64,000 nucleotides of DNA, taken from positions 93,012-157,011 of IMG/VR virus record IMGVR_UViG_3300028569_002586; one strand, 5' to 3'. The notes beneath the pieces are model-generated. The model did no database searches and had not been told where the DNA came from. It saw only the letters and a program-made list of their open reading frames with translations. Made by a program: the position numbers and the translations under genes. This document shows, piece by piece, positions 57,940 through 58,953 of this stretch. Every line of letters starts with the position of its first letter. Position 1 is the stretch's first letter. This stretch comes from a virus.

Positions 57940-58953
57940 ATGCCCAATGTACCAGATTTTAGAAATATCGCCAGAGCAACCAGAGCAGGAACTGATGTCT
58001 TTTCCTATAAAAACATAATACAGAGAACCAATCAAACAGGCGGTTCAACTGCCATGGCATCACCAGAGCCCATACAACCAGGCTACACAGCAACTGTAAG
58101 AACAACATATCCTGGTGCAGTACTGGCTGAAGCATTTGGTAGCAGGTGCACTTCTTTCATACAGACATTGTGTGGATATGCACCAAATGATGTGGTGACT
58201 GCAGCCAGCATATGTTCAGATGATAAAAACGCTCCTGTATTTCCAGGCAATACTTTTGGTCAGTACCCAGTTTCTCTGCAAGCATTTCTGGGACCTTTCT
58301 TTGCTGGTGGCATTGGTGGGTATCCTTTCCCTGGCATTGTGGGCACCTTTGCATGGGCATCACATGTGACTGATACTGGTGCATTGTTCATTTACTCACA
58401 ACCTCACATTGGCATCACAGCTGCAGGGCAAGTGGGATTCATGGTGAGACAAGGTCAATCTGTAAATTCAGCCACATGTGGTGCTGTGAATGCTGCACAG
58501 AACAGAATCATTGGACCATTGAGTGCCACACCTCCTGCATTTCCAAGCGCAGAATTTACTGTGAATGACTTTCAACAATACACCCTGACAAATATTCTGT
58601 ACTCCAACACAACCACAAGAAATGCATTGACAGCCAACAGAGCTGCAAATGATGATGTGTCCAATCCAACCAATGCAGGATTTGGTGCAAGAATGAAAAT
58701 TGCCACAGATGCCATCAGGGATGAAGCTAACAGTGTGCTTGAAACAACTATTATTCCTGCAGCATATGCAGCTCTAAGCGGTGCATTAGGTGCAGCAGCC
58801 AACTTCAACAGTGACTTGTTCTTGAGCTCTGGCACCTTCATCAATGTGGATGATGGTTACAAGGCATATGTGGATGTCACCAGCTTCAAGAAATACAATC
58901 CTGACACTCAAACATTCACAAATTACACATCACAGTTTAGCGCGGGATTGTAA
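57940..58953 (+). CDS. MPNVPDFR-leader protein 2: LCIB-family (theta-type) carbonic anhydrase-like
   Basis: YPGA, SICSDD, F.AGGIGGYPFPG..G..AWASH, QPHIGI..G.VG...R.GQ...S.TCGA; Cys/His/Cys ligands intact. Confidence 0.8.
   Translation: MPNVPDFRNIARATRAGTDVFSYKNIIQRTNQTGGSTAMASPEPIQPGYTATVRTTYPGAVLAEAFGSRCTSFIQTLCGYAPNDVVTAASICSDDKNAPVFPGNTFGQYPVSLQAFLGPFFAGGIGGYPFPGIVGTFAWASHVTDTGALFIYSQPHIGITAAGQVGFMVRQGQSVNSATCGAVNAAQNRIIGPLSATPPAFPSAEFTVNDFQQYTLTNILYSNTTTRNALTANRAANDDVSNPTNAGFGARMKIATDAIRDEANSVLETTIIPAAYAALSGALGAAANFNSDLFLSSGTFINVDDGYKAYVDVTSFKKYNPDTQTFTNYTSQFSAGL

What the first reader, a model, noticed from the sequence alone, without database searches (positions are those of the whole stretch)
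57940..58953. Phage-encoded LCIB/theta-class carbonic anhydrase, apparently a late tagged protein
Seen: SICSDD, GGIGGYPFPG, ASH, PHIGI, RQGQ and TCGA in the order of the LCIB family. Known: LCIB proteins act in algal CO2-concentrating mechanisms, theta-CAs are homologous, and Zn is bound by Cys/His/Cys. All three ligands are present. I am not aware of this family as a phage auxiliary gene. The late-type box and shared leader suggest a virion-associated role rather than a classic early metabolic gene (inference).
Basis: partly seen in the sequence, partly recalled or inferred. Interest (0 to 1): 0.8.

Follow-up and report, generated by a model that had tools for sequence, protein, structure and literature searches.

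The report
Phage LCIB-type carbonic anhydrase on tag
An uncultured T4-like phage encodes a complete algal-type (LCIB/theta) zinc carbonic anhydrase that is switched on late and carries a short N-terminal tag shared with two fibre-like neighbours, so it may ride on the virus particle; neither that nor its activity has been shown.

Summary
ORF 57940-58953 (337 aa) is an LCIB/theta-type member of the beta-carbonic-anhydrase fold. It scores 93 bits on Pfam LCIB_C_CA (cut-off 25). Its model matches PtLCIB4 at Z 27.6, rmsd 2.2 A over 241 residues.

Cys92, His156 and Cys180 align with the zinc ligands of PtLCIB4. With Asp94, His142 and Arg170 they are invariant in 121 relatives. A symmetric dimer with these residues at the interface is predicted.

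The contig is a T4-like phage. The gene sits 5 nt behind a TAAGTA box, as do portal and adaptor genes. Its first ~30 residues recur on two neighbouring proteins and nowhere else in the record.

The ~290-aa core forms a monophyletic phage clade. It occurs on at least 155 IMG/VR contigs, and no homologue turned up in 50,697 GenBank phage records (three clade members used as queries). It carries at least eight lineage-specific N-terminal modules, mostly near head and tail genes. The nearest cellular relatives are ~255-aa proteins, mostly of Bacteroidota.

Best reading (about 0.5): a late, dimeric zinc CA docked to the virion by its tag. Activity, virion location and purpose are untested. This scan had already noted the same family on other DNA (at least 8 genomes). 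I found no paper describing it.

The parts
57929..57934 (+). Late-type box TAAGTA, 5 nt upstream of the ATG (promoter-on-start-codon layout, no Shine-Dalgarno site)
   Evidence: Read. TAA[AG]TA lies 5-7 nt before the start of 39 of 162 ORFs, including portal and head-tail adaptor; every other spacing occurs 3 times or fewer. 20 of the 21 closest LCIB genes in other contigs have the box 4-8 nt upstream.
57940..58953 (+). Whole gene, 337 aa plus stop: tag, linker and LCIB-type catalytic domain
57940..58029 (+). N-terminal tag A (residues 1-30, MPNVPDFR...KNII). Predicted helical at low confidence. Shared with ORFs 55188 and 58989.
   Evidence: HMM of 20 tags: three hits in the 157-kb record, E 1e-17 to 1e-19, next hit E 1.2; helices 7-21 and 23-30, pLDDT 53-58
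58030..58083 (+). Flexible Pro/Thr/Gly-rich linker (residues 31-48)
   Evidence: pLDDT below 50 for residues 31-41; length and sequence vary among relatives
58084..58950 (+). LCIB/theta-CA fold domain (residues 49-337)
   Evidence: Pfam match on residues 74-228. Foldseek to 6kfs/5b5y, E 1e-15, TM 0.82 on the target. VIA-align Z 27.6, rmsd 2.2 A, 241/241 residues of 5b5y_B, model range 47-334.
58213..58221 (+). Codons for Cys92-Ser93-Asp94 (zinc ligand 1, the 'open' Ser position, catalytic Asp)
   Evidence: Aligned to Cys46-Ser47-Asp48 of PtLCIB4. Cys and Asp invariant in 121 sequences; position 93 is Ser or Ala only.
58363..58365 (+). His142, equivalent of PtLCIB4 His88 (second-shell active-site His)
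58405..58407 (+). His156, zinc ligand 2 (PtLCIB4 His102)
58447..58449 (+). Arg170, invariant Arg of the R-x-G motif, at the predicted dimer interface
58477..58479 (+). Cys180, zinc ligand 3 (PtLCIB4 Cys126)
55188..56630 (+). Tag-mate 1 (480 aa): tag A, conserved domain, Pro/Thr linkers, C-terminal cupredoxin-like domain
   Evidence: C-terminal domain hits PHROG tail families and the C-termini of gp9-like 'baseplate wedge tail fiber connector' and tail-fibre-like proteins in 171 cyanophage records.
56627..57904 (+). Untagged S1-type serine protease-like gene (His/Asp/Ser triad readable). Its start overlaps the stop of tag-mate 1 by 4 nt. It lies directly upstream of the LCIB gene.
   Evidence: phrog_20754 protease. 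88-90% identical and in the same position in L064, L065 and L079.
58989..60641 (+). Tag-mate 2 (550 aa): tag A, ~60-aa Pro/Thr stalk, 446-aa orphan domain. Its own late box TATAAATA at 58975-58982 ends 6 nt before the GTG start.

Best explanation
The gene encodes a working zinc enzyme of the LCIB/theta subgroup of beta-carbonic anhydrases, made late in infection by a T4-like phage. A late promoter box set 5 nt before the ATG drives it. Residues 49-337 fold like PtLCIB4 and pair into the usual beta-CA-type dimer. Each active site lies at the dimer interface: zinc held by Cys92, His156 and Cys180, with Asp94, His142, Arg170 and Gln108 around it. The enzyme most likely interconverts CO2 and bicarbonate. 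Residues 1-30 are a plug-in tag joined by a short flexible linker. The same tag heads two neighbouring proteins with fibre-like bodies, so all three probably dock at the same site, most likely on the virion. Shown here: family, fold, conserved site, late-type box, tag sharing, phage-only clade. Inferred: CA activity, dimer, virion location, purpose.
For: Family and fold: Pfam 93 bits; Foldseek E 1e-15; VIA Z 27.6, rmsd 2.2 A over all 241 residues of 5b5y_B, against Z 11-12 for ordinary beta-CAs.

Active site: position-by-position alignment to PtLCIB4. Cys92, Asp94, Asp95, His142, His156, Arg170 and Cys180 are invariant in 121 relatives down to 38% identity. 21 of 22 full-length 50%-cluster representatives keep them, while one (P0177) lost all three ligands, so drift does occur when constraint lapses. 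Position 93 is Ser/Ala as in active PtLCIB4, not the Arg of the S47R mutant.

Dimer: predicted homodimer score 0.81 against a best of 3 controls of 0.00. That mark was reached by 20 of 30 proteins solved as pairs of one chain and 1 of 23 solved as single chains. Runs agree in at least 80% of contacts and partner pLDDT is at least 87. The interface includes residues 93-99, 117-125, 141-142 and 170-174. The pass may be from memory of solved LCIB dimers.

Late expression: box statistics; 20 of 21 closest homologues have the box.

Tag: three copies in this record and 3-4 clustered copies in related records, on different cargos.

Virion link: tag-mate 55188 ends in a domain found on cyanophage gp9-like and tail-fibre-like proteins. 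In other lineages the core carries other N-terminal modules. It sits beside the capsid gene in a crAss-like contig and a T4-like contig. The commonest PHROG families among 149 neighbours are major head, head-tail adaptor, virion structural and portal.
Against: No assay, zinc measurement or virion proteome exists; no cultured phage carries the family. A dimeric enzyme fits poorly with the trimeric build of typical fibres. The Arg found four residues after the Asp in the solved algal and diatom proteins (Arg52 of PtLCIB4) is Ala here and Ala/Gly (once Ser) among the 121 relatives; it is, however, variable across the wider family too. The canonical beta-CA D-x-R dyad is absent, as it is in PtLCIB4. 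About a quarter of clade members have almost no N-terminal module. The tag itself matches nothing of known function, and no docking partner was identified. No obvious benefit of a CA outside the cell is known.
Confidence: 0.5

Rival explanations
1. Cytoplasmic auxiliary metabolic enzyme. The CA works inside the infected cell late in infection, for example supplying bicarbonate for carboxylations in purine, pyrimidine and fatty-acid synthesis or buffering pH. The tag serves oligomerisation, stability or localisation inside the cell, not virion docking.
For: The nearest cellular relatives are untagged ~255-aa chromosomal proteins, found in 532 species genomes, mostly Bacteroidota. The phage invests heavily in nucleotide metabolism (RNR large and small subunits). 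Viral alpha, beta and gamma CAs have been proposed as metabolic genes (bioRxiv 10.64898/2026.01.21.700432). Some clade members are essentially tag-less.
Against: The gene has a late-type box like the structural genes. The tag is shared with fibre-like Pro/Thr-stalk proteins. The gene recurs inside head and tail gene blocks in unrelated phage lineages. The N-terminal modules are lineage-specific, which suits docking to lineage-specific structures.
Confidence: 0.25
2. Packaged or injected protein. The tag targets the enzyme and its tag-mates into the head or tail lumen, and they enter the host with the DNA to act at the very start of infection.
For: T4-like phages package tagged internal proteins with the help of a gp21-type protease (established T4 biology), and this phage has a Peptidase_S77 gene. 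Expression is late. Tagged genes form a small cassette.
Against: No (Leu/Ile)-x-Glu cleavage motif of the gp21 type is readable in the three tags. Two tag-mates carry 50-70-residue Pro/Thr stalks, typical of exposed, tethered domains. One tag-mate ends in a baseplate/fibre-type domain.
Confidence: 0.1
3. Same zinc site, different chemistry. The phage clade hydrolyses another small substrate (for example COS or CS2, as some beta-CA-fold enzymes do) or an unknown one.
For: The phage clade sits on a long stem (0.8 changes per column) apart from cellular LCIB proteins. It has its own invariant residues (Asp95, Gln108, Phe120, and the C-terminal G-T-F-I-N-x-D motif). It lacks the Arg52 equivalent. 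A COS hydrolase shares the fold at Z 7.3.
Against: All residues shared with active PtLCIB4 are kept. Resemblance to LCIB (Z 27.6) is far stronger than to COS hydrolase.
Confidence: 0.1
4. Non-catalytic module. The LCIB fold is used as a binding or structural head, and the zinc site is only structural.
For: The other cargos on the same tag look like adhesin-type heads. Chlamydomonas LCIB itself lacks measurable activity in vitro (PMC9614477). One clade member has lost all ligands.
Against: Not only the ligands but also Asp94, His142, Arg170 and Gln108 are invariant or nearly so over 121 sequences. The Ser/Ala at position 93 matches the active form.
Confidence: 0.05

Closest known systems
PtLCIB4 / PtLCIB3 of Phaeodactylum tricornutum and related solved LCIB_C_CA proteins (PDB 5b5y, 6kfs, 9vzj): the theta-CA / LCIB subgroup of beta-carbonic anhydrases
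   Same: The fold matches over the whole domain (Z 27.6, rmsd 2.2 A). Cys/His/Cys, the Asp, the second His and the R-x-G Arg sit at aligned positions. Ser follows the first Cys, as in the active diatom enzyme. A dimer with the active site at the interface is predicted.
   Different: Sequence identity is only about 20%. The host is a phage rather than an alga. There is an extra N-terminal tag and linker. Arg52 is replaced by Ala. An insertion of about 8 residues follows the first Cys. The clade has its own C-terminal motif G-T-F-I-N-x-D. No link to a pyrenoid or thylakoid CO2-concentrating mechanism exists. Activity is untested.
Chlamydomonas LCIB / LCIC (PDB 5k5w, 5b5x)
   Same: Same family and fold (Z 21-22).
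   Different: They are weaker matches. They act as a large hetero-complex around the pyrenoid and lack in-vitro activity (PMC9614477). The Arg introduced next to the first Cys in the PtLCIB4 S47R mutant, which by my recollection mimics LCIB, is absent in the phage clade.
Uncharacterised bacterial LCIB_C_CA proteins of about 255 aa (Chitinophaga, Pedobacter, Flavobacterium, Chryseobacterium, Spirosoma; also Methylobacter and Gemmatimonadota)
   Same: They are the nearest cellular relatives by HMMER rank (about 40% identity over the N-terminal half). They share the C-S-D-D motif and all catalytic positions.
   Different: They are chromosomal, untagged and shorter, and lack the phage-clade C-terminal motif. 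They fall outside the monophyletic phage clade (support 100). The branching order of the phage, bacterial and long/tandem groups is unresolved.
Viral carbonic anhydrases reported so far (alpha, beta and gamma classes on viral contigs; beta-CAs of giant viruses)
   Same: A virus-encoded CO2/bicarbonate enzyme.
   Different: They belong to other CA classes, are proposed as metabolic genes, and have no docking tag. BFVD holds no structural match better than E 6e-3, a Pandoravirus beta-CA.
Tail-fibre and tailspike cassettes with a shared N-terminal anchor and swapped C-terminal heads (general phage biology, from knowledge)
   Same: There are 3-4 adjacent late genes with one common N-terminus and unrelated bodies. 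One body ends in a baseplate/fibre-type domain.
   Different: The anchor here is only about 30 residues and matches no known anchor. The cargo is a small-molecule enzyme predicted to be a dimer, not a trimeric fibre or depolymerase.

Membership tests
LCIB / theta-CA (Pfam PF18599 LCIB_C_CA) | Scores above the curated Pfam gathering threshold | tested here: met
   93.1 bits against a cut-off of 25, E 2e-26; 92.9 bits in the six-frame search
LCIB / theta-CA (Pfam PF18599 LCIB_C_CA) | LCIB-type variant of the beta-CA fold over the whole domain | tested here: met
   AF2 model pLDDT 85.9. VIA Z 27.6, rmsd 2.2 A, 241/241 residues of 5b5y_B; ordinary beta-CAs reach only Z 11-12. Foldseek E 1e-15.
LCIB / theta-CA (Pfam PF18599 LCIB_C_CA) | Zinc ligands Cys-His-Cys (PtLCIB4 Cys46, His102, Cys126; the numbering is recalled from Jin et al. 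2016, which could not be opened, and is consistent with the S47R and H88A entries) | tested here: met
   Cys92, His156 and Cys180 align to them with identical spacing of the His and the second Cys. Invariant in 121 sequences. Spatial convergence was not measured directly because no coordinates are returned; it is implied by the 2.2 A superposition.
LCIB / theta-CA (Pfam PF18599 LCIB_C_CA) | Catalytic Asp two residues after the first Cys (C-x-D) | tested here: met
   Asp94 is invariant
LCIB / theta-CA (Pfam PF18599 LCIB_C_CA) | Arg four residues after the Asp (Arg52 of PtLCIB4; N-R-P or T-R-P in the solved proteins) | tested here: inconclusive
   It is Ala98 here and Ala/Gly (once Ser) among 121 relatives. 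The position is also variable in bacterial and long/tandem members of the family, so it is not family-defining. Which Arg partners the Asp could not be read without coordinates.
LCIB / theta-CA (Pfam PF18599 LCIB_C_CA) | Homodimer with the active site at the interface | tested here: met
   Prediction only. Score 0.81 against best control 0.00; the mark was reached by 20 of 30 solved one-chain pairs and 1 of 23 single chains; contacts agree at 80% or more; pLDDT at least 87. The pass may reflect solved LCIB dimers.
LCIB / theta-CA (Pfam PF18599 LCIB_C_CA) | Bound zinc and CO2 hydration activity | not testable with these tools
   Needs protein expression, ICP-MS and a stopped-flow or 18O-exchange assay
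Canonical beta-carbonic anhydrase (Pfam PF00484 Pro_CA) | Pro_CA HMM match and the C-x-D-x-R motif | tested here: not met
   No Pro_CA hit at E up to 1. The motif here is C-S-D-D-K. The fold is related only at Z 11-12.
Virion-mounted enzyme or fibre on a shared N-terminal anchor | N-terminal module shared with other proteins of the same phage that are virion parts | tested here: inconclusive
   Sharing is shown. One tag-mate carries a domain annotated on baseplate/fibre proteins of cyanophages. No tag-mate is proven to be structural.
Virion-mounted enzyme or fibre on a shared N-terminal anchor | Presence in purified virions | not testable with these tools
   No cultured carrier phage exists
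T4-type internal proteins with a capsid-targeting sequence | Short N-terminal leader ending in a gp21-type (Leu/Ile)-x-Glu cleavage site | tested here: not met
   No such motif is readable in the three tags, although a Peptidase_S77 gene is present. The motif definition comes from established T4 biology.

The most novel reading that the evidence does not exclude
Many uncultured tailed phages (T4-like, crAss-like and jumbo) display an active carbonic anhydrase on the outside of the particle. It is plugged in through small lineage-specific N-terminal tags that also carry adhesin-like heads. A virus particle would then carry out CO2/bicarbonate chemistry at the host surface, a kind of virion enzyme not described before.
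Probability: 0.35. Interest if true: 0.85.

Novelty: new variant of a known kind. Interest (0 to 1): 0.65.

Why it matters
LCIB/theta carbonic anhydrases are known from algal and diatom CO2-concentrating mechanisms. Here the same enzyme type, with an intact and strongly conserved active site, forms a large phage-only clade that appears in no paper I could find and in no cultured phage.

Its late-gene setting, its lineage-specific N-terminal modules and its place among head and tail genes point to a particle-borne small-molecule enzyme. That would widen the known repertoire of virion enzymes beyond polymer-degrading ones.

It also raises a concrete and testable question: why would a phage of non-photosynthetic hosts, plausibly Bacteroidota, need CO2/bicarbonate interconversion at entry or assembly? 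Even if the enzyme acts inside the cell, it would be a new class of viral carbon-chemistry gene that is abundant in metagenomes.

The 30-residue tag is also a candidate natural plug-in display handle.

Tried and rejected
Searches for the tag elsewhere:
- A protein-database search with residues 1-40 of ORF 58989 found only the query itself.
- A degenerate DNA pattern for the tag in IMG/VR gave 44 stretches, of which only one (L030) was a true tag.
- Tags A and B gave no tblastn match in GenBank phages.

Function of tag-mate 58989:
- Only 5 homologues, no Pfam family.
- The AlphaFold model was unusable (pLDDT 42.5), so no fold search was run.

Literature:
- Jin et al. 2016 (PNAS) could not be opened by DOI or PMC id, so ligand numbering rests on memory plus the mutant entries.

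Cyanophage idea (a cytosolic CA collapsing the host CO2-concentrating mechanism):
- No psbA/psbD or hli in this record.
- No psbA/psbD in 16 other LCIB-bearing viral records, 4 of them at least 90% complete.
- Disfavoured, not excluded, because this record is 74% complete.

Prophage or host clues:
- Motifs specific to the phage clade found nothing in 185,579 species genomes.
- The one record that IMG/VR calls a provirus has no integrase.
- The host remains unknown.

Origin from Bacteroidota:
- FastTree nested the phage clade among bacterial sequences.
- IQ-TREE gave an unresolved three-way split.
- I therefore make no donor claim.

Capsid-targeting leader of the T4 type:
- No gp21-type cleavage motif is readable in the tags.

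PHROGs:
- No family matched this protein or ten divergent relatives.
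Full report
**Observation.** ORF 57940-58953 (+, ATG, 337 aa) exists as described. It carries the six quoted motifs in order. Pfam LCIB_C_CA matches residues 74-228 at E 2e-26 and 93.1 bits, against a cut-off of 25. phmmer against PDB sequences finds 6kfs, 9vzj/9w05, PtLCIB4 and, more weakly, Chlamydomonas LCIB and LCIC.

**Where it lies.** The window is the last 64 kb of a 157,011-bp IMG/VR virus record, linear, with CheckV completeness 74%.
- It is a T4-like tailed phage. Evidence: portal, head-tail adaptor, major head protein, ribonucleotide reductase and a tail-fibre gene; Gp23 at 295 bits; gp21-type Peptidase_S77.
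- No photosystem (psbA/psbD) or hli genes were found.

**Fold.** An AlphaFold2 model built on 74 aligned relatives has mean pLDDT 85.9 and pTM 0.83. Residues 1-45 are at low confidence: two short helices, then a disordered stretch.
- Foldseek's eight significant PDB hits are all LCIB-family entries (best E 1.6e-15, target TM 0.82).
- VIA-align gives Z 27.6, rmsd 2.2 A over all 241 residues of 5b5y_B, model range 47-334. Ordinary beta-CAs reach Z 10-12.5 and COS hydrolase Z 7.3.
- The whole of residues 49-337 is therefore an LCIB-type domain, including the C-terminal third that the Pfam alignment missed.
- BFVD, the library of viral protein models, has nothing better than E 6e-3.

**Active site.** The phmmer alignment to PtLCIB4 and its S47R and H88A mutants fixes the register as follows:

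| This protein | PtLCIB4 |
|---|---|
| Cys92 | Cys46 |
| Ser93 | Ser47 |
| Asp94 | Asp48 |
| Ala98 | Arg52 |
| His142 | His88 |
| His156 | His102 |
| Cys180 | Cys126 |

- Cys46, His102 and Cys126 are the zinc ligands by my recollection of Jin et al. 2016, which the library does not hold. The spacings fit exactly.
- In 121 sequences (38-95% identity), Cys92, Asp94, Asp95, Gln108, Phe120, His142, His156, Arg170 and Cys180 are invariant. Position 93 is only Ser or Ala.
- Among 50%-identity representatives of the clade, 21 of 22 full-length members keep all six key residues. One 549-aa member (P0177) has lost all three ligands. This shows the positions can drift once constraint is lifted.
- The Arg52 equivalent is Ala/Gly (once Ser) among 121 relatives, but this position also varies in bacterial and long/tandem members of the family. 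I therefore treat it as a difference from the diatom enzymes, not as a failed family criterion.
- The canonical beta-CA D-x-R dyad (as described in bioRxiv 10.64898/2026.03.13.711513) is absent in sequence, as it is in PtLCIB4.

**Oligomer.** Two copies of residues 46-337, with zinc riding along, gave a score of 0.81 against a best of 3 controls of 0.00.
- That mark was reached by 20 of 30 proteins solved as pairs of one chain and by 1 of 23 solved as single chains.
- The runs agree in at least 80% of contacts, and partner pLDDT is at least 87.
- The symmetric interface contains residues 93-99, 117-125, 141-142 and 170-174, that is, the active-site segments.
- This supports, but does not show, a beta-CA-type dimer. 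It may reflect memory of solved LCIB dimers.

**Late expression.**
- TAAGTA lies at 57929-57934, 5 nt before the ATG.
- In the whole record, TAA[AG]TA ends 5, 6 or 7 nt before the start codon of 23, 10 and 6 ORFs respectively (39 of 162). No other spacing occurs more than 3 times.
- The set includes the portal, head-tail adaptor, prohead-protease and LCIB genes and ORF 58989.
- The full T4 late consensus TATAAATA occurs 11 times in the window against 5.2 expected.
- Among the 21 closest LCIB genes on other contigs, 20 have the box 4-8 nt upstream. Overall 25 of 65 do, against 85 of 901 crude background ORFs.
- Late timing is inferred from the motif, not measured.

**The tag.** Residues 1-30 (M-P-N-V-P-D-F-R ... 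K-N-I-I) recur at the extreme N-terminus of ORF 55188 (480 aa, TTG start) and ORF 58989 (550 aa, GTG start).
- An HMM built from 20 such tags finds exactly these three in the 157-kb record (E 1e-17 to 1e-19; the next hit has E 1.2).
- Related records hold 3-4 copies, always clustered within about 9 kb around the LCIB gene and on different cargos.
- The two tag-mates continue with long Pro/Thr stalks.
- ORF 55188 ends in a cupredoxin-like domain. That domain matches PHROG tail families and the C-termini of proteins annotated gp9 'baseplate wedge tail fiber connector' or tail-fibre-like in 171 cyanophage records at 33-37% identity.
- The body of ORF 58989 is an orphan domain with five homologues, and its model was unusable.
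- Between the tagged genes lies an untagged S1-type serine protease-like gene (56627-57904). Its start overlaps the stop of ORF 55188. It is 88-90% identical in three relatives whose LCIB proteins, where full-length, are only about 60% identical.

**The family.**
- The word-indexed search found 587 protein clusters, all metagenomic.
- The exhaustive search of 1.84 billion representatives found 639 at E up to 1e-3, 204 at up to 1e-10 and 22 at up to 1e-30.
- 155 IMG/VR contigs encode a relative.
- The ESM Atlas lists 22 LCIB_C_CA clusters, mostly labelled Uroviricota.
- No GenBank phage record and no PHROG family matches.
- The ~290-aa core is joined to at least eight unrelated N-terminal modules of 25-134 residues, or to almost none. 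Pfam recognises only the LCIB domain in them.
- Some modules are shared with neighbouring non-LCIB genes: tag A; a module beginning K-K-R-A-F-V-R-Y; and a roughly 70-residue module.
- Contexts include a 172-kb relative of this phage, a 203-kb phage with a tandem pair, a crAss-like contig downstream of the capsid gene and a T4-like contig one small gene downstream of gp23.
- Among 149 neighbours within 5 kb in 15 diverse loci, the PHROG families hit most often are major head protein, head-tail adaptor, virion structural proteins and portal. This is a tally, not a formal enrichment test.

**Relatives in cells.** A 265-aa homologue lies on a 507-kb Bacteroidota-like contig.
- Similar ~255-aa genes occur in 532 GTDB species genomes. 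Among the best 80 these are chiefly Chitinophaga, Pedobacter, Flavobacterium, Chryseobacterium and Spirosoma, with some Methylobacter and Gemmatimonadota.
- They share the C-S-D-D motif and all catalytic positions.
- In trees the phage clade is monophyletic (FastTree 100; IQ-TREE SH-aLRT 100 with a stem of 0.8).
- Its position relative to the bacterial group and the long/tandem group is unresolved.
- Motifs specific to the phage clade found nothing in 185,579 species genomes.

**Mechanism.**
- Shown: an LCIB-fold protein with a conserved Cys/His/Cys/Asp site; a late-type promoter box; and a tag shared with fibre-like neighbours, in a phage-only clade.
- Inferred: it is a dimeric zinc enzyme that interconverts CO2 and bicarbonate, and the tag docks it and its tag-mates at a common site, most likely on the particle.
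- Unknown: the purpose.
- Rivals: a cytoplasmic bicarbonate supplier; a packaged and injected enzyme; another small-molecule hydrolase; a non-catalytic head. None is excluded.
- The idea that it short-circuits a cyanobacterial CO2-concentrating mechanism is disfavoured by the lack of psbA/psbD in this and 16 other carrier records.

**Literature and earlier notes.**
- No paper in the searchable library links LCIB or theta-CA with phages.
- Viral CAs of the alpha, beta and gamma classes have been reported.
- This scan had already noted the same family on other DNA, in at least 8 genomes, with similar readings, and had noted the tag and the late box in this genome. I re-derived each point used here from the sequence.

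**Verdict.** It is a new phage-borne, tag-carrying variant of a known enzyme family. Interest is moderate to high, because a virion-mounted CA would be a new kind of particle enzyme. Activity and location remain to be tested.

Noticed in passing
window 56627-57904 (+): An untagged S1/chymotrypsin-type serine protease-like gene. The His, Asp and G-D-S-G-S Ser motifs are readable. Its ATG overlaps the stop of the tagged ORF 55188 by 4 nt. It is 88-90% identical in three related contigs and always sits directly upstream of the LCIB gene, so it is far better conserved than its neighbours. Its role (tag processing, or a virion protease) is unknown.
   Followed up: partly
window 56241-56627 (+), C-terminus of ORF 55188: A cupredoxin-like domain with a possible type-1 copper ligand pattern (H-P-F ... 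Y-Y-Q-C-x-x-H-x-x-M). It is shared at 33-37% identity with the C-termini of gp9-like 'baseplate wedge tail fiber connector' proteins in 171 marine cyanophage records.
   Followed up: partly
window 58989-60641 (+): Tag A, then a Pro/Thr stalk of about 60 residues, then a 446-aa orphan domain with many invariant Trp, Gly and Tyr residues. It has only five homologues in 5.8 billion proteins, each on a tag-plus-stalk. AlphaFold failed on it (pLDDT 42).
   Followed up: partly
whole record G000 (window 1-64000 and upstream): TAA[AG]TA ends 5-7 nt before the start codon of 39 of 162 ORFs, with no room for a Shine-Dalgarno site. GTG and TTG starts are common. This implies leaderless or near-leaderless late mRNAs.
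   Followed up: partly
window 47860-49712 (-): Three adjacent cell-wall hydrolase-type genes: Phage_lysozyme, a 3D-domain protein, and GH108 with PG_binding_3.
   Followed up: no
P0177 (549 aa, metagenomic; member of the phage LCIB clade): A degenerate clade member in which all three zinc ligands are replaced (Pro, Ala, Asn) while the fold motifs remain. It is a likely pseudo-enzyme.
   Followed up: no
L084:9659-11989 and L086 (776-aa ORFs): The LCIB domain sits in the N-terminal half of a 776-aa protein. The C-terminal extension of about 400 residues has no Pfam match.
   Followed up: no
L004, L075-L078, L081, L082: Tandem pairs of LCIB genes: a longer tagged gene followed by a shorter, nearly tag-less one. 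The tag-less forms may ride on tagged partners by dimerising with them.
   Followed up: no
L136-L215 (GTDB genomes): Uncharacterised LCIB_C_CA genes of about 255 aa are widespread in Bacteroidota (532 species genomes matched). They also occur in Methylobacter, Gemmatimonadota and Acidobacteriota. In one contig the gene sits next to PHO4/PhoU phosphate-transport genes.
   Followed up: partly
window 61387-61461 (-) and 61783-62466 (-): A tRNA-Met (CAT) gene, followed by a SprT-like zinc-protease-domain gene that is also conserved next to the LCIB locus in the 172-kb relative L002.
   Followed up: no
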